Part shown: one piece after another, positions 34,563 to 39,455 of the stretch
Numbering within the stretch: the first letter of the stretch is position 1
Layout of the letters: every line of letters begins with the position of its first letter
From: a virus
Lineage: Duplodnaviria > Heunggongvirae > Uroviricota > Caudoviricetes
Direction: 5' to 3' (one strand)
DNA: 64,000 nucleotides
Virus record (IMG/VR): IMGVR_UViG_2706794662_000007
Program-made: the position numbers and the translations under genes
Notes under the pieces: model-generated
What the model saw: the letters and a program-made list of their open reading frames with translations, nothing else
What the model was told of the DNA's origin: nothing
Database searches by the model: none

Positions 34563-35207
34563 CTAATGAACGGTCACTCGACCACAGAACCGGTTTTCTA
34601 TCTTTTCTACAGCGTTATCTAGCATTCTCATCACTGATCTGGCTCTTGCTTCAACCGTGCGATATCGGTTGGAAACGACGAAGGTTTGCAGATCCCCCCT
34701 TTGCGGATGCAGGTGAATTTTTGTCAGTTCCCCGCACATCAACGCATCAATACGAGCGACATACAGACGGTCTAATGATGCTCGTTGTGATCGCAAGTAA
34801 TCTCGCTCTGAGAGAGCGACTCCCGGGCGTAGGCCAGCAATGGCGTTAAAGTTTGAAATAGCAGTTTTGTGGCAAAACTTTTCGATATCGAGGGCTAACT
34901 CAATACATCGATCTTCATTGGTATGGCCGACCAAATCCAACGTGTAGGCCATAACATCAGCAGGTGTGCGATCGATAACAAAGCCTTCAACACCACGCGT
35001 AAGTAGCTCTATATGCTTTGCGATTTCCATTTGAATCTGAAGCCGCTCATATAGAGGCATAGACTCACCTACTCGAACACCGAGTCGGCTCATCAAACTT
35101 CCGACACCAGCATCCACGTAAGGGATTCCGTAATGTTTGTCGATATATTTTGCCAGGGTTGTTTTCCCACTGCCCTGAGCACCAGTGATCCCAATCCGGT
35201 AATCCAT
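34563..35207 (-). CDS. P-loop nucleotide kinase-like protein
   Basis: Walker A GITGAQGSGKTT; sits within nucleotide-metabolism cluster. Confidence 0.5.
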   Translation of the reverse strand: MDYRIGITGAQGSGKTTLAKYIDKHYGIPYVDAGVGSLMSRLGVRVGESMPLYERLQIQMEIAKHIELLTRGVEGFVIDRTPADVMAYTLDLVGHTNEDRCIELALDIEKFCHKTAISNFNAIAGLRPGVALSERDYLRSQRASLDRLYVARIDALMCGELTKIHLHPQRGDLQTFVVSNRYRTVEARARSVMRMLDNAVEKIENRFCGRVTVH

Positions 35208-35683
35208 TACGACCTTCTGTATACGATCTGCGAAAAGCCAGGCTCTTCCTCGCTGGCTCGTTGGGTAAAAACTGTTTCAACAGGCACAAAGCCTAAATTA
35301 CGCATCATGCTTGCCGGGAAGAATGCATCGGCGTTTGGCACATCAACGCCGATGTGGGAGAGCCAAATCTCTTCAACATGCGGCATGAATAGCGAGTAAA
35401 TTTGTTCCCCGCCAATCACCCACACAGGCTCTGGTAATCGCAACACATCATCCACACCAGCAGGGTAGAATCCATTTGGTACAAAGCCATGAGAGCGCGT
35501 CAAAACGAGGTTATGACGCTCTGGAAGAGGGCGTTTGAGACTTTCCATCGTTTTACGCCCCATAACGACAGTGGCGTTTTTGGTGAGTCTCTTAAATAGC
35601 TTCAGATCGGTAGAACAACGCCAGGGCAGTTCGTTCGCTATGCCGATCTCATAGTTACGGCCAACAGCAGCTATCATCTTCAT
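35207..35683 (-). CDS. dihydrofolate reductase
   Basis: IAAVGRNYEIG...LPW...VVMGRKT...LPER...VIGG matches DHFR motifs. Confidence 0.85.
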   Translation of the reverse strand: MKMIAAVGRNYEIGIANELPWRCSTDLKLFKRLTKNATVVMGRKTMESLKRPLPERHNLVLTRSHGFVPNGFYPAGVDDVLRLPEPVWVIGGEQIYSLFMPHVEEIWLSHIGVDVPNADAFFPASMMRNLGFVPVETVFTQRASEEEPGFSQIVYRRS

Positions 35684-36093
35684 TTGCTCACCTCATAGAT
35701 GACCGGTCTATGATGAGAGTCAGCTAAAGCGGCACGGAGTCGAGGATCGTGCACCAGCGCAGCGATAAGCAGATCGCCTTTATGCTCCGCTAATGTGCGC
35801 TTAATATGCTTCTCATAACTGGTGCCATTCGGTACGAGATGAAGCCAGTCGTAATCAACGCCAAAATCTTTCAGCCATCGTTTAGTGGGCGCTTCAAGAG
35901 TTTCAGAGCGGCTACTGATAAGCACCACTTCAGCCCCTGAGCGAGCAAAACCACGCAACATACGGCTGGTGGGGAAAATGAGTTCATCACCGGCAATGAG
36001 CTGGCCTGCATCCGTGTCAGGTACAGATTTACGATGGCTGGTATTTGCCAGCACACCTTCAATTTCGCATAAGACATACATACCTCTTGCCAT
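35680..36093 (-). CDS. HAD-like (5'(3')-deoxyribonucleotidase-like) protein with non-canonical motif I
   Basis: MYVLCEIEGVLANT aligns to the HAD motif hhhDxDGVLAD but with C and E at the aspartate positions; start ATG 4 nt after thyA stop. Confidence 0.4.
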   Translation of the reverse strand: MARGMYVLCEIEGVLANTSHRKSVPDTDAGQLIAGDELIFPTSRMLRGFARSGAEVVLISSRSETLEAPTKRWLKDFGVDYDWLHLVPNGTSYEKHIKRTLAEHKGDLLIAALVHDPRLRAALADSHHRPVIYEVSK

Positions 36094-36094
36094 A

Positions 36095-37198
36095 TCACAC
36101 CGCCACTGGAACCTTGATCCACGGTAGAGGGTCATAGCCAAGAATCAGAATATCGTCCCATTTGAAATCATCCAGCTCAGACCATTCATGAGGGAAAATA
36201 ACGACCGGATCTGAATGCTCTGGAGCCTGTCGTTTCATTAGCTCACACACACCTTCCATGTGGTTGTTGTACAAATGCACGTCAAAGCCAAAATGCACAA
36301 ATGCACCGGCCATGTGACCCGTAATCTTCGCGAGAAAATGAGTGAGAATGCCATAGCCAGCAATATTGAATGGCATACCAACAAAAGTGTCTACGCTACG
36401 CTGTACGAGGCAGGAGTTGAGGATGCGTTTGGGGATTCCAAGTTCATCCAGTTCAGTTTCAGTAACACTGCCGTCCATCTCCAGATCGTATAGCATCTTG
36501 GTGTAGATAGACTCATAACCGAAGCGACTGTGTTGAAGACCAATGTCAGTTGCCATCGTTAAACGGGTTTCAAAATCAAGCTCACGACTCCACAAAGAGA
36601 AGACAAAGTGGCAAGGTGGCAGTTTCATATCCTCAAGCTCGCCTACGTTCCATGCGTTAAGCATGATGCGACGATCGGTAGGGTTCGTGCGCAGTGTGTC
36701 GACAATACGCTGTAGCTGATCGATTTCACGGGACAGCACTACGCGATCTTCACTGATACCCAGGTATCCCTCGACTTTGTACCCGCGTTCACGGAAAGTA
36801 GCGATCTTGCTCAGATATTCACTATGGCTCACGATGCGGGTATCTTCCCATCGACGCCACTGCTTACCGTAAACCGGCCCCAAATCGCCATTCTCATCGG
36901 CCCATGCATCCCAAATCTTAACGCCGTTATCCTTAAGAAATTGGATGTTGCCCGTGCCTTTCAGATACCACTCAAGTTCGACAAGCAGTGGCTTAAGATT
37001 TACCGCCTTTCCAGAAATAAGCGGCACAGTCCCACCAGTAAGCATGTAGTAAGAGGGAACGTAGCAGGTGCTTAAAGTACCAGTGCCTGTGCGATCATCA
37101 GTCTGCACGCCGCTTTTAAGCACCGTCTCAATAACTTTTGCATACGATGCGTTTGTTACCTGACCGTTCGTATGCTCACGATTCAAAAGGAGTGACAT
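36095..37198 (-). CDS. thyA: thymidylate synthase family protein (ThyA-like, with insertions)
   Basis: DRTGTGT, GPVYGKQWR, RRIMLNAWN, LPPCH, QRSVD, PFNIA, DVHLY, C-terminal IKVPVAV; 367 aa with an insertion of about 50 aa after the PCH motif. Confidence 0.85.
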   Translation of the reverse strand: MSLLLNREHTNGQVTNASYAKVIETVLKSGVQTDDRTGTGTLSTCYVPSYYMLTGGTVPLISGKAVNLKPLLVELEWYLKGTGNIQFLKDNGVKIWDAWADENGDLGPVYGKQWRRWEDTRIVSHSEYLSKIATFRERGYKVEGYLGISEDRVVLSREIDQLQRIVDTLRTNPTDRRIMLNAWNVGELEDMKLPPCHFVFSLWSRELDFETRLTMATDIGLQHSRFGYESIYTKMLYDLEMDGSVTETELDELGIPKRILNSCLVQRSVDTFVGMPFNIAGYGILTHFLAKITGHMAGAFVHFGFDVHLYNNHMEGVCELMKRQAPEHSDPVVIFPHEWSELDDFKWDDILILGYDPLPWIKVPVAV

Positions 37199-37279: not shown

Positions 37280-37298
37280 ATGGTGGCCATAGGCCACC
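37280..37298 (-). terminator. terminator hairpin
   Basis: tggtggccataggccacca flanked by A/T runs. Confidence 0.5.
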
Positions 37299-37365
37299 AA
37301 AAAGAATAGTCGTTCCAGAGTTTTATACGCAAATCAAATATACATTAGTAGATAATCACCTACAA

Positions 37366-38235
37366 TTATTTTTTGATCATTCCGTACATTGCTGAGGCTT
37401 TAGCTTGCTCAACAAAGGAGGATAAATCGACATCACTATAGGTTGGAGACTTCAGAATCTTTCCATCGGAAATTCGAAAACCGATCATCTTATCGGTGCC
37501 ATCAGCATGGCGAAATCCCAGGTCTGAAGAGTCGTATTTGCAGTTGGCCACAGCCTGGCGACGTTCCTCTACATCAGCAGGCCATAATTTTGTCATGTTA
37601 GACCGATGAATTTCGCCAACCAGCTCGACTACATTGATACCGAGGAAATCAGCCAGTCGATAGGTCATCATGCACGCCACATAGATTTTGTTCATGACAC
37701 GGCGCAGTTCCTGAATCAGCTCAGAATCCTTAACAGTCTTGTTCTCAAGTTTATCTGCCAGCTCTTCGAGCATACATGACGCCTCACGAGCTTCCTGAAA
37801 TGGCATTGCCATATCATCGAAAACAGTGTTACCGGGCACAAAAATTGTCTGCATAAAGCGATCAATGCTCTGTTCCTGCGTGTAATAGGTCATGCCGGTA
37901 GAAATACCACCTTTGATGGCGACCATCGTACCAACACCAACGTATAAAAAGTCGGCCATTGCATCCAGCAGTTGCTCAATATCCCCATTCATTGCAGCTG
38001 GAATACCTTCCACTACAGCTTCTTCATGAATCAGGCTTGCACGGAGACGAAGCAGCTCTGGTGTCGGCATAACGCGTCTCGGATGCTGGAAGAGTTCATG
38101 AAACTGATCGACCATCTTGTAAATACTTTCAGTAGCTACACCATGACCTTCATGCAACTCATATGGTTCTGGCTTAAATCCAATGAGACGATCGGTGGCA
38201 AGTTTCAGGTGGTCAGTCAGTTTGGTAAAGTTCAT
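37366..38235 (-). CDS. hypothetical protein (possibly nucleotide metabolism)
   Basis: Start set to MNFTKLTDH; helical, with several ExxE-type acidic pairs; function not recognised. Confidence 0.45.
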   Translation of the reverse strand: MNFTKLTDHLKLATDRLIGFKPEPYELHEGHGVATESIYKMVDQFHELFQHPRRVMPTPELLRLRASLIHEEAVVEGIPAAMNGDIEQLLDAMADFLYVGVGTMVAIKGGISTGMTYYTQEQSIDRFMQTIFVPGNTVFDDMAMPFQEAREASCMLEELADKLENKTVKDSELIQELRRVMNKIYVACMMTYRLADFLGINVVELVGEIHRSNMTKLWPADVEERRQAVANCKYDSSDLGFRHADGTDKMIGFRISDGKILKSPTYSDVDLSSFVEQAKASAMYGMIKK

Positions 38236-38312
38236 GCTAGTTTTGTTCCTTCTTAATTCTTGTGATCCATTGTGGCCCAGCGTTGCCAGGTTACATAATG
38301 CTTTGTATCGGT

Positions 38313-39455
38313 TCACAGGTCTGCAAACTGGCTTAGAGAAGCCTTGTCCACGGTAGAATCGATCTGACCTACCAGATATGTGCTTTGCTCTGCCTCTTGT
38401 GGTGCAATTTGCAGTGTGTCGGTTAACAACCACTTGTTCATCCAGACCAGCGGATCGGTGGTAACCTCTGGAAATAAAGCCTTCAGGCCAAGACGATTCA
38501 TAGCCAGATTGGTGCGGTATTTTACATAGGTCTTCAAAATATCCGCGTTTAAACCAATCATCGAACCGTCTTTGAAGAGATACTCGGCCCAGTTCATTTC
38601 TTGTTCGGCGACTGATTTCATGGTGTCGTAAATGACGTTTTCTTCATCAGCAGCAATCTCTTTCCACAATAAACCTTCGCGACCGGTACGCATGAAGCGG
38701 ATCATGCGTTCAGTTCCTTCGCAATGCAGAGCTTCATCACGGGCAATAAAGCGCATAATTTTGGTGTTACCCTCAAGCAACTTCCGTTCGCCAAAGGCAA
38801 ACGTACATGCAAAACTTACATAGAAACGGATCGCCTCAAGCGCATTAATGGACACCAACGTGCGGAAAAGCTGACGGTGCAAAGGATATGGCTCCCAGCC
38901 ATATTCATTTACGTACAGACGCTCAAATTCCTTCTCGCCTAACGACTGGCGCTCGCAGGTCATCCCATAAAGCCTGTCATATTCAGCAGAGATACTGATC
39001 GCTCGGTTGATGATTTCTTCATCCGTAACAATACCGTCAAAAACAATGCTCGGATCGTCCACCATGCCACGAATAATGTGGGTGTAGCTGCGGCTATGGA
39101 TAGTCTCAGAGAAAGACCATGTTTCAACCCACGTTTCCAGTTCAGGAATAGAGATAAGCGGCAGCAGCGTTGCATTTGGGCTACGTCCCTGAACTGAATC
39201 GAGTAACGTTTGATAACGGAGATTGCTCAGAAAAATGTGACGTTCGTGGTCCCGCAGCTTCGTGTTGAAGTCGATACGATCGCTCGAAATATCAACTTCT
39301 TCCGGCCGCCAGAAGAAAGACAATTGACGTTCAATCAACTTTTCAAAATCACGGTATTTTTGCTGATCGTAACGTGCCACGTTGACAGATTGTCCGAGGA
39401 ACATAGGCTCTTTGGTTGCATCATTAGCACCCAAACGGAACGTTGAATATGACAT
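38313..39455 (-). CDS. nrdB: ribonucleotide reductase class Ia beta subunit
   Basis: Near-colinear with E. coli NrdB as I recall it ([38 protein letters not shown]-terminal YLVGQIDS...); start set to MSYSTFRLG. Confidence 0.95.

What the first reader, a model, noticed from the sequence alone, without database searches (positions are those of the whole stretch)
35680..36093. HAD-like nucleotidase homolog with Cys/Glu replacing the catalytic Asp-x-Asp
The N-terminus VLCEIEGVLANT aligns with the HAD motif I hhhDxDGVLAD, but both aspartates are substituted. It sits between DHFR and ThyA in the dNTP-synthesis cluster, so it could be an inactive regulatory paralog or use unusual chemistry.
Basis: partly seen in the sequence, partly recalled or inferred. 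Interest (0 to 1): 0.4.

Follow-up and report, generated by a model that had tools for sequence, protein, structure and literature searches.

The report
Degenerate phage HAD phosphatase-like protein
A small, well-conserved phage-plasmid gene wedged between thymidylate synthase and a trimethoprim-resistant DHFR has the fold of a polynucleotide 3'-phosphatase, but its catalytic aspartates are replaced by glutamates, or lost outright in orthologues, so it is most likely a non-catalytic relic kept for a binding role.

Summary
The ORF at 35680-36093 (minus strand, 137 aa) is a real gene under purifying selection (dN/dS 0.07). The window is an SSU5-like phage-plasmid, 100% identical to Escherichia phage CMS-2020a. 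The predicted structure (pLDDT 85) is a cap-less HAD fold, closest to the phosphatase domains of Capnocytophaga Pnkp1 and T4 Pnkp, not to nucleotidases.

The two aspartates are replaced by Glu10 and Glu12 (E-x-E). Cys9 is only the hydrophobic residue before the nucleophile.

Across 41 orthologues, of which every clade whose locus was fetched sits in the same slot directly after thyA, the nucleophile position is:
- Asp in 3 (these pass the Pfam HAD_PNKP cutoff; both loci fetched lack DHFR);
- Glu in 32;
- Thr, Ala or Gly in 6.

Motif IV is not conserved either; a 73%-identical Klebsiella orthologue has Ser-Ser. The positions kept in at least 90% of orthologues are not catalytic ones. Two correspond to T4 residues recalled as architectural (Arg21, Asp36); others belong to two orthogroup-specific motifs.

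The best reading is a pseudo-phosphatase kept as a binding or assembly component of the thyA-X-dfrA51-kinase operon. Residual or altered catalysis cannot be excluded. This is a new variant of a known kind, of modest interest.

The parts
35680..36093 (-). 137-aa HAD_PNKP-like protein (pseudo-phosphatase candidate), phrog_5387
   Evidence: ORF and translation. phrog_5387 E 2.5e-89. AF2 pLDDT 85 with a HAD fold. dN/dS 0.067 against SSU5.
36049..36075 (-). Degenerate motif I, residues 7-15 VLCEIEGVL. Glu10 takes the place of the Asp nucleophile (T4 D165) and Glu12 the place of the acid/base Asp (T4 D167).
   Evidence: HMMER alignments to Pnkp1 and T4 Pnkp. Residue 10 lies at the end of strand 5-10 in the model. 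Orthologue table.
35947..35973 (-). Orthogroup motif PTSRMLRGF (residues 41-49) at the N-terminus of helix 40-51. Thr42, Arg44, Leu46 and Gly48 are kept in at least 90% of 41 orthologues.
   Evidence: Helix boundaries.
35908..35916 (-). Motif II equivalent Ser60-Ser61-Arg62 (T4 S211-G212-R213).
   Evidence: Position 60 is Ser/Thr in most orthologues and Asp/Glu in the six that lack a carboxylate at position 10.
35800..35814 (-). Motif III region Glu94...Lys98 (T4 D254...K258). Conserved only among close SSU5-type relatives.
35746..35751 (-). Remnant of motif IV, His115-Asp116 (T4 D277-D278). It is Ser-Ser in the 73%-identical Klebsiella orthologue.
   Evidence: HMMER register. These residues follow strand 108-114. 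ST13 sequence and residue counts.
35695..35715 (-). Orthogroup-specific C-terminal motif HHRPVIY (residues 127-133). Pro130 is invariant. It replaces the canonical MWR..G..c.QV segment.
36095..37198 (-). Thymidylate synthase (367 aa, two insertions). Its stop codon lies 1 nt before the HAD-like start codon.
   Evidence: Pfam PF00303 E 2.4e-79. Catalytic PPCH, QRSVD..PFN and C-terminal PVAV are kept in all orthologous loci.
35207..35683 (-). Dihydrofolate reductase DfrA51. Its start codon overlaps the HAD-like stop codon (ATGA).
   Evidence: NCBIfam DfrA51, 334 bits against a cutoff of 322. Sequence.
34563..35207 (-). P-loop nucleoside/nucleotide-kinase-like protein (GAQGSGKTT, DRTxxDxxxY). It follows the HAD-like gene directly in relatives that lack DHFR.
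37366..38235 (-). MazG-like (PRA-PH) NTP pyrophosphohydrolase upstream of thyA. The start codon is not certain.
   Evidence: Pfam PF01503 E 1.3e-8. Annotated in Cyrano and SSU5.
37281..37299 (-). Terminator-like hairpin between the MazG-like gene and thyA. It may mark the upstream edge of the thyA-X-dfrA-kinase unit.
   Evidence: This is a consensus scan only.

Best explanation
The gene encodes a stand-alone, cap-less HAD domain descended from the 3'-phosphatase domain of polynucleotide kinase-phosphatases. It has lost the canonical phospho-aspartyl machinery.

Shown: the fold is intact, and the gene is under purifying selection as strong as that on the neighbouring enzyme DHFR. It is the second cistron of a tightly coupled thyA-X-dfrA51-kinase unit. 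Its orthologues occupy the same position directly after thyA in every clade whose locus was fetched. The catalytic positions (nucleophile, motif III Lys, motif IV acids, and the two Arg that hold the polynucleotide backbone in T4 Pnkp) are not conserved among these orthologues. The positions that are conserved are non-catalytic, including the equivalents of T4 R176 and D187 and two orthogroup-specific motifs.

Inferred: the protein no longer acts as a phosphomonoesterase through an acyl-phosphate intermediate. It works instead as a non-catalytic binding module. It would either hold a phosphorylated or metal ligand in the partly acidic remnant pocket, or dock onto a partner (ThyA or the kinase-like protein) through its remodelled C-terminal segment. 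That segment forms the dimer interface in T4 Pnkp. Either way it would serve the phage-plasmid's dTMP-synthesis module.
For: Fold:
- AF2 pLDDT 85, pTM 0.81.
- Foldseek matches to Pnkp1 (E 3e-8, TM 0.78) and the T4 Pnkp phosphatase domain (TM 0.81). Viral PNKP domains also match.

Degeneration:
- Pfam HAD_PNKP scores 23.1 bits, below the gathering cutoff of 27.6.
- Orthologues P0045 and P0196 score 45 and 40 bits. Members of the Thr/Ala/Gly clade score nothing.

Orthology:
- The order MazG-like, ThyA, X, (DHFR), kinase-like, unknown gene, RNase T-like exonuclease holds for carriers of E-x-D (L002-5), T-x-D (L006, L007, L010), G-x-T (L008, L009) and D-x-D (L011-14).

Residue table against T4 D165/D167/R176/D187/S211/R213/R246/D254/K258/D277/D278:
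- The nucleophile position is E in 32, D in 3, T in 3, G in 2 and A in 1 of 41 orthologues.
- It is D in 125 of the 128 aligned proteins outside the orthogroup.
- Motif IV is Ser-Ser in the 73%-identical ST13 orthologue.
- Positions kept in at least 90% of orthologues: V14, R21, D36, T42, R44, L46, G48, G53, T70, W73, L74, G78, D82, P130.

Selection:
- dN/dS is 0.067 for X and 0.060 for DHFR, window against SSU5.

Catalytic roles of D165, D167, S211, K258 and D278 in T4 Pnkp come from PMC3592404.
Against: - Glu10 is invariant in all 32 E-clade sequences down to about 33% identity. Position 12 is always Asp or Glu there. Pure decay does not predict this.
- In the clade without a carboxylate at position 10, the adjacent motif II position is Asp or Glu in 6 of 6. 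This looks like a relocated carboxylate and suggests the pocket still matters.
- In the window protein and its closest relatives, nearly every T4 catalytic position still holds a chemically similar residue (E10, E12, S60, R62, E94, K98, D116).
- No binding partner or ligand was identified.
- No activity data exist.
- The model's coordinates could not be inspected, so the pocket geometry is unverified.
Confidence: 0.55

Rival explanations
1. It is still an active phosphohydrolase with altered chemistry. Glu10 would act as the nucleophile or as a general base for direct water attack. In the Thr/Ala/Gly clade, the Asp/Glu at the motif II position would take that role. The substrate would be a nucleotide of the dUMP/dTMP pathway.
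For: - Glu10 is invariant and position 12 is always acidic across the E clade.
- The window protein keeps Ser60, Arg62, Glu94, Lys98 and Asp116 at T4 catalytic positions.
- Loss of the carboxylate at position 10 coincides with gain of Asp/Glu at position 60.
- The gene is coupled to nucleotide-metabolism genes.
Against: - Motif IV, which supplies a Mg2+ ligand, is Ser-Ser, Cys-Ser, Ala-Ser or Thr-Thr in E-clade orthologues.
- Lys98 is Ala, Ser or Thr in several.
- Position 10 drifts among Ala, Thr and Gly inside one clade.
- From my own recollection, not checked here, Asp-to-Glu changes at the HAD nucleophile inactivate characterised members.
- The position 10/60 covariation probably reflects a single evolutionary event (tree).
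Confidence: 0.2
2. It is the phosphatase half of a split polynucleotide kinase-phosphatase-like pair with the downstream P-loop protein. It would bind, or once healed, 3'-phosphate nucleic-acid ends. Its position next to thyA would be incidental.
For: - In DHFR-less relatives, the HAD gene is followed 3 nt later by the P-loop gene.
- Fusions of HAD_PNKP with an AAA_33 kinase exist in both domain orders.
- The P-loop gene of L008 carries a weak AAA_33 hit.
- Records for phages Cyrano and ST13-OXA48phi12.3 annotate the gene as a Pnkp homologue.
Against: - The P-loop protein has a DRTxxDxxxY motif. Its only multi-segment PDB match is a deoxynucleoside kinase (2jas, E 4e-4).
- T4 Pnkp is not among its best 60 PDB matches.
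- The positions of T4 R246 and R279 are Val87 and Pro117 here. Their role in binding the polynucleotide backbone is my recollection of Zhu et al. 2007, not read here.
- No RNA ligase was looked for in the window, and none was seen in the stretches examined.
Confidence: 0.12
3. It is a functionless relic that persists only because it lies inside a coupled operon, for example as a spacer that keeps translational coupling of dfrA to thyA.
For: Catalytic motifs decay in a mosaic pattern in different lineages. Both ends of the gene show overlapping or adjacent start and stop codons.
Against: - dN/dS is 0.067, equal to that of DHFR.
- Intact ORFs of 137-148 aa persist down to 22-27% identity in distant phage-plasmids.
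- Fourteen positions are kept in at least 90% of orthologues, including motifs specific to the orthogroup.
- A confident, compact fold is predicted.
Confidence: 0.05

Closest known systems
T4 polynucleotide kinase-phosphatase (Pnkp), C-terminal 3'-phosphatase domain (PDB 1ltq, 2ia5, 5uj0)
   Same: Same cap-less HAD fold (TMq 0.81 to 5uj0) and the same order of motifs. The equivalents of R176, D187, S211, R213 and K258 are present in the window protein.
   Different: - D165 and D167 are Glu, D254 is Glu, D277 is His, R246 is Val and R279 is Pro.
- There is no fused kinase domain.
- The C-terminal segment is replaced by HxH(R/K)PxxY. In T4 that segment forms the dimer interface (own knowledge of Zhu et al. 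2007, not read here).
- Sequence identity is about 14%.
Capnocytophaga gingivalis Pnkp1 phosphatase domain (PDB 4xrp, 4xru) and Pfam HAD_PNKP (PF25109)
   Same: Best sequence and structure match (phmmer E 3.8e-5, Foldseek E 3e-8). It even shares the Cys before the nucleophile (VICDLDG against VLCEIEG).
   Different: The window protein scores below the Pfam gathering cutoff (23.1 against 27.6 bits). It lacks DxD, the 'MR' arginine and the DDR motif.
Stand-alone PNKP-like phosphatases of about 150 aa in T1-like, Webervirus and other phages, annotated 'polynucleotide kinase/phosphatase' or 'acid phosphatase'
   Same: Same size and single-domain layout. They are phage-encoded and about 25-30% identical over the N-terminal 85 residues.
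   Different: They keep the full DxDGTLA / (S/T)GR / YDxLxMR / K / (D/E)DR set. Their gene neighbourhoods were not examined here.
Non-catalytic or weakly catalytic HAD-like domains, such as the Nir2/PITPNM LNS2 domain (PDB 9jtz, binds phosphatidic acid) and plant vegetative storage proteins (4fyp)
   Same: They appear among the structural matches. They are precedents for a HAD fold reused for ligand binding.
   Different: They are eukaryotic, larger, and belong to different HAD subfamilies. Homology is at superfamily level only. That some of them lack catalysis is my own knowledge and was not tested here.

Membership tests
HAD superfamily (DxDxT acylphosphatases) | Rossmannoid alpha/beta core with motif I at the end of strand 1 | tested here: met
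   AF2 model with pLDDT 85. Strand 5-10 ends at residue 10. Foldseek top hits are all HAD phosphatases.
HAD superfamily (DxDxT acylphosphatases) | Motif I Asp nucleophile and Asp+2 general acid/base | tested here: not met
   Glu10 and Glu12 occupy these positions. Orthologues have E, T, A, G or D at the nucleophile position.
HAD superfamily (DxDxT acylphosphatases) | Motif II Ser/Thr | tested here: met
   Ser60 aligns with T4 S211. Position 60 is Ser/Thr in 32 of 41 orthologues.
HAD superfamily (DxDxT acylphosphatases) | Motif III Lys | tested here: inconclusive
   Lys98 aligns with T4 K258 in the HMMER register, but one column off in MAFFT. It is Lys in 26 of 41 orthologues and Ala, Thr, Ser or Asn in others.
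HAD superfamily (DxDxT acylphosphatases) | Motif IV acidic pair that coordinates Mg2+ | tested here: not met
   The window has His115-Asp116, so only one acid remains. The ST13 orthologue has Ser-Ser. Most of the E clade has no acid there.
Pfam HAD_PNKP (PF25109), polynucleotide 3'-phosphatase domain | Score at or above the curated gathering cutoff (27.6 bits) | tested here: not met
   23.1 bits, E 9e-5. The syntenic orthologues P0045 and P0196 do pass, at 45.3 and 40.3 bits.
Pfam HAD_PNKP (PF25109), polynucleotide 3'-phosphatase domain | Arginines that bind the penultimate phosphodiester of the polynucleotide (T4 R246, R279; their role is recalled from Zhu et al. 2007, not read here) | tested here: not met
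   Val87 and Pro117 occupy the aligned positions.
   No nucleotidase family appears among the Pfam, NCBIfam or PHROG hits at E up to 1. A 137-aa protein has no room for a cap insertion.
Pseudo-phosphatase (operational class) | Fold kept, catalytic residues lost, purifying selection | tested here: met
Pseudo-phosphatase (operational class) | Absence of phosphatase activity | not testable with these tools
   This needs an enzyme assay.

The most novel reading that the evidence does not exclude
The orthogroup is a HAD-fold enzyme family that has rebuilt its active site. It would use a Glu at the end of strand 1, or in one clade an Asp/Glu at the end of strand 2, instead of the otherwise near-universal Asp nucleophile, and would work without the motif IV metal ligands. 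Its substrate would be a nucleotide in the phage thymidylate pathway. That would be a new catalytic solution within the HAD superfamily.
Probability: 0.12. Interest if true: 0.7.

Novelty: new variant of a known kind. Interest (0 to 1): 0.35.

Why it matters
This exact protein occurs on at least 1000 E. coli and Shigella contigs and is always labelled 'hypothetical'. It is translationally coupled to dfrA51, a recently recognised trimethoprim-resistance gene of SSU5-type phage-plasmids (PMC12217456), and to a phage thymidylate synthase.

If it modulates or assembles the TS/DHFR/kinase module, it could affect dTMP supply during phage replication and possibly the trimethoprim phenotype of carriers.

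The orthologue series runs from D-x-D through E-x-D/E to T/A/G-x-D within one conserved genomic slot. It is also a clean natural example of how a phosphatase becomes a pseudoenzyme. The finding is not a new kind of system, and its function remains inferred.

Tried and rejected
- Looked for a canonical DxD elsewhere in the protein. There is none.
- Tested the nucleotidase idea against Pfam, NCBIfam and PHROGs. Only PNKP-type and acid-phosphatase HAD families appear.
- Scanned PADLOC defence models. No hit for the HAD-like protein.
- Tried to find the canonical-DxD orthologue P0045 in viral and metagenome contig collections. Nothing was confirmed. It was then recovered through the search for homologous proteins and the look-up of encoding contigs.
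- Tried to model the neighbouring P-loop protein. The single-sequence model had pLDDT 33 and was discarded, so no fold search was run on it.
- Considered a fused ThyA+X model to test an interface. I dropped it because the tool returns no PAE or coordinates and refuses sequences not found in the window.
- Asked whether the ThyA insertions co-occur with X outside this lineage. Insertion 2 is found only in the same 12 SSU5-like phage records, so this is uninformative.
- Considered that the ThyA homologue might be a hydroxymethylase, with X an ancestral dTMPase as in hmU phages. The TS hallmarks, the C-terminal PVAV and the adjacent DHFR argue for a true thymidylate synthase. The idea is not supported, though it is not formally excluded for the DHFR-less relatives.
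- Zhu et al. 2007 (Virology) and Wang & Shuman 2002 (NAR) were not available to read. Statements taken from them are marked as recollection.
- The MAFFT and HMMER registers differ by one column at motifs III and IV. I used the HMMER register because it agrees with the strand ends in the model.

Full report
**What is there.** On the minus strand, 35680..36093 encodes a 137-aa protein, MARGMYVLCEIEGVLANT...YEVSK.
- Its ATG lies one nucleotide after the TGA of a 367-aa thymidylate synthase (36095..37198).
- Its TGA overlaps the ATG of a 158-aa DHFR (35207..35683) as ATGA.
- The DHFR stop in turn overlaps the start of a P-loop kinase-like gene (34563..35207).
- A terminator-like hairpin lies upstream of thyA (consensus scan only).

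The window is an SSU5-type phage-plasmid. It is 100% identical to Escherichia phage CMS-2020a, about 98-99.8% to PhiR41_1 and Cyrano, and 78% to Salmonella phage SSU5.

**Is it HAD-like beyond chance?** Yes.
- Sequence: Pfam HAD_PNKP E 9e-5 (23.1 bits, below the 27.6-bit cutoff), phrog_415 'polynucleotide kinase' E 2.8e-9, and phrog_5387 (unknown function) over full length at E 2.5e-89.
- phmmer against PDB sequences finds only Capnocytophaga Pnkp1 (4xrp) at E 3.8e-5.
- A profile of 14 family members, searched against 1.84 billion representatives, returns 375 proteins at E up to 1e-3. Beyond the family itself these are canonical DxDGTLA phosphatase domains, either stand-alone or fused to AAA_33 kinases.
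- Structure: the AlphaFold2 model built on the family alignment has pLDDT 85 and pTM 0.81. Foldseek places it with Pnkp1 (E 3e-8, TMq 0.78), the T4 Pnkp phosphatase domain (5uj0, TMq 0.81), class B/C acid phosphatases, and viral PNKP domains in BFVD.

**Register of motif I.** HMMER aligns VLCEIEGVLA with VICDLDGTLS of Pnkp1 and with VIFDVDGTLA of T4 Pnkp.
- Glu10 therefore sits at the Asp165 nucleophile position and Glu12 at the Asp167 acid/base position.
- Cys9 is the hydrophobic residue before the nucleophile, and it is Cys in Pnkp1 and many canonical members too.
The 'Cys/Glu' of the title should read 'Glu/Glu'.
- The codons are GAA at 36064-36066 and GAA at 36058-36060 (read).

**The rest of the active site.** In the HMMER register, which agrees with the strand ends in the model, the window protein has the following residues at T4 positions:

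| T4 Pnkp | Window protein |
|---|---|
| R176 | Arg21 |
| D187 | Asp36 |
| S211 | Ser60 |
| R213 | Arg62 |
| R246 | Val87 |
| D254 | Glu94 |
| K258 | Lys98 |
| D277-D278 | His115-Asp116 |
| R279 | Pro117 |

In T4 Pnkp, D165 is the covalent nucleophile and D167 the acid/base. S211 and K258 stabilise the transition state, and Mg2+ is held by D165, D278 and the D167 carbonyl (PMC3592404). That R176, D187, R213 and D254 are architectural, and that R246 and R279 bind the polynucleotide backbone, is my recollection of Zhu et al. 2007 (Virology 366:126). I could not open that paper.

**Orthologues decide the question.** I collected 41 full-length or near-full-length members of the orthogroup and fetched loci for representatives of every clade.
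- In all of them the gene sits immediately downstream of thyA. The order is MazG-like, ThyA, X, (DHFR), P-loop kinase-like, unknown gene, RNase T-like exonuclease.
- A rough neighbour-joining tree gives three clades.

| Clade | Members | Motif I | Other features |
|---|---|---|---|
| D | P0045, P0195, P0196 | canonical D-x-D | SGR, the 'LR' arginine and Lys kept. P0045 and P0196 pass the Pfam HAD_PNKP cutoff (45.3, 40.3 bits). Their loci lack DHFR, so X abuts the kinase gene. P0195 sits on a 1.2-kb contig and was not examined. |
| E | 32 sequences from Escherichia, Salmonella, Klebsiella, Citrobacter, Raoultella and others, including the window | E-x-(D/E) | Motif IV mostly without an acid |
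| T/A/G | Moellerella, Providencia and metagenomic phage-plasmids | T-x-D, A-x-D or G-x-T | Asp/Glu at the motif II position |

- Motif IV is not conserved even among close relatives. The Klebsiella phage ST13-OXA48phi12.3 orthologue (73% identical) has Ser-Ser where the window has His-Asp.
- Among the 128 aligned proteins outside the orthogroup, the nucleophile position is Asp in 125. The three exceptions are a degraded family fragment (P0048), a misaligned protein with a canonical DIDG earlier in its sequence (P0060), and one independent E-I-D case that also lacks motif IV (P0153).
- Across all 41 orthologues, the positions kept at 90% or more are V14, R21, D36, T42, R44, L46, G48, G53, T70, W73, L74, G78, D82 and P130. 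None is a catalytic position. They include two positions that are architectural in T4 Pnkp by my recollection (R21, D36). They also include parts of two orthogroup-specific motifs: PT(S)RxLxGF at the start of helix 40-51, and HxH(R/K)PxxY near the C-terminus.

**It is a working gene.** For the window against SSU5, dN/dS is 0.067 for X and 0.060 for DHFR. Amino-acid identity is 87% for X and ThyA, 89% for DHFR and 82% for the kinase-like protein. ORFs of 137-148 aa persist down to 22-27% identity. The exact protein is on at least 1000 contigs of E. coli and Shigella and is always called hypothetical. Two phage records call it a T4 Pnkp phosphatase-domain homologue.

**Interpretation.**
- A phosphatase that needs an Asp nucleophile cannot tolerate Thr, Ala or Gly there. 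The function shared by the E and T/A/G clades is therefore not canonical HAD catalysis.
- Strong purifying selection, conserved non-catalytic positions and new orthogroup motifs point to a pseudoenzyme kept for binding.
- The C-terminal segment that was remodelled is the one that builds the phosphatase-phosphatase dimer interface in T4 Pnkp (recollection). That makes a changed protein-protein interface plausible.
- Tight coupling to thyA, dfrA51 and a dNK/TMPK-like P-loop protein makes the thymidylate module the most likely place of action. The P-loop protein has a DRTxxDxxxY motif and its only extended PDB match is a deoxynucleoside kinase, E 4e-4. The ThyA orthologues all keep PPCH, QRSVD..PFN and the C-terminal PVA(V/K), consistent with a real thymidylate synthase.
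- I put about 0.55 on this reading. The specific partner or ligand is not identified.

**What does not fit neatly.**
- Glu10 is invariant in 32 of 32 E-clade sequences, and position 12 is always acidic there.
- In the T/A/G clade, the motif II position is Asp/Glu in 6 of 6, while carriers of E10 or D10 have Ser, Thr, Cys or Ala there, with one exception.
- That clade also keeps an acid in motif IV.
- Motif I and motif II residues contact the same phosphoryl group in T4 Pnkp. This looks like a carboxylate that moved within a pocket that still matters, whether for metal or ligand binding or for some residual or altered catalysis.
- The change probably happened once, at the base of the clade, so it carries little statistical weight.
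- It is the reason I leave 0.2 on an active enzyme with altered chemistry, and 0.12 on the stronger claim of a rebuilt HAD active site.

**Other rivals.**
- A split PNKP-like pair with the P-loop protein (0.12). Adjacency in DHFR-less relatives and the existence of phosphatase-kinase fusions suggest it. The kinase looks like a nucleoside/nucleotide kinase, however, and the residues at the T4 backbone-binding positions are lost.
- A functionless relic (0.05). The selection data contradict it.

**Novelty and score.**
- The fold, the family and the gene's existence are known. Some records already annotate the Pnkp similarity.
- What appears new is two things: the recognition that the catalytic aspartates are replaced, and the graded series across syntenic orthologues that marks it as a pseudo-phosphatase embedded in the thyA-dfrA51 operon. 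The few keyword searches I ran in the held library for HAD pseudo-phosphatases returned nothing relevant, and none targeted this gene.
- I rate it a new variant of a known kind, with interest 0.35.

Noticed in passing
window 35207-35683 (-): The DHFR scores above the NCBIfam cutoff for the trimethoprim-resistant DfrA51 (334 bits against 322). dfrA51 was described in SSU5-type phage-plasmids in 2025 (PMC12217456).
   Followed up: partly
window 36095-37198 (-): The thymidylate synthase is 367 aa, with two insertions (roughly residues 122-160 and 205-262) relative to the Pfam TS model. By tblastn, the second insertion is found only in 12 SSU5-like phage records. All catalytic hallmarks and the C-terminal PVAV are kept.
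   Followed up: partly
window 34563-35207 (-): A P-loop protein (GAQGSGKTT, DRTxxDxxxY, conserved Arg139/Arg142) resembles deoxynucleoside or thymidylate kinases. Phage records annotate it variously as 'ABC transporter ATP-binding protein', 'AAA family ATPase' or hypothetical. The single-sequence AF2 model failed (pLDDT 33).
   Followed up: partly
L011 5005-8052 and L013 4632-7506: Related metagenomic phage(-plasmid) loci carry the same MazG-ThyA-HAD-kinase block but lack the DHFR gene and the RNR genes upstream. Their HAD gene still has a canonical DxD. DHFR was therefore either inserted in the SSU5 lineages or lost in these.
   Followed up: partly
window 37281-37299 (-): A GC-rich hairpin with a T-run (terminator-like) lies between the MazG-like gene and thyA. 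It suggests that thyA-X-dfrA51-kinase is a separate, or attenuated, transcription unit.
   Followed up: no
window 37366-38433 (-): A MazG-like (PRA-PH) NTP pyrophosphohydrolase. The mechanical ORF extends to a GTG at 38433 and overlaps the end of nrdB. Annotated homologues start about 66 codons later (289 aa).
   Followed up: no
P0153 (from; no locus): A 144-aa HAD_PNKP relative that does not carry the orthogroup's C-terminal motif also has E-I-D at motif I and has lost motif IV. Asp-to-Glu change together with motif IV loss may therefore be a recurrent route of degeneration. Its gene context could not be looked up.
   Followed up: no
L005 4945-6028: In one metagenomic relative, thyA is called as two overlapping ORFs (124 and 251 aa). 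This is probably a frameshift or an assembly error. The downstream HAD-like gene is intact.
   Followed up: no
window 1-64000: ARAGORN found no tRNA or tmRNA genes in the whole window.
   Followed up: yes
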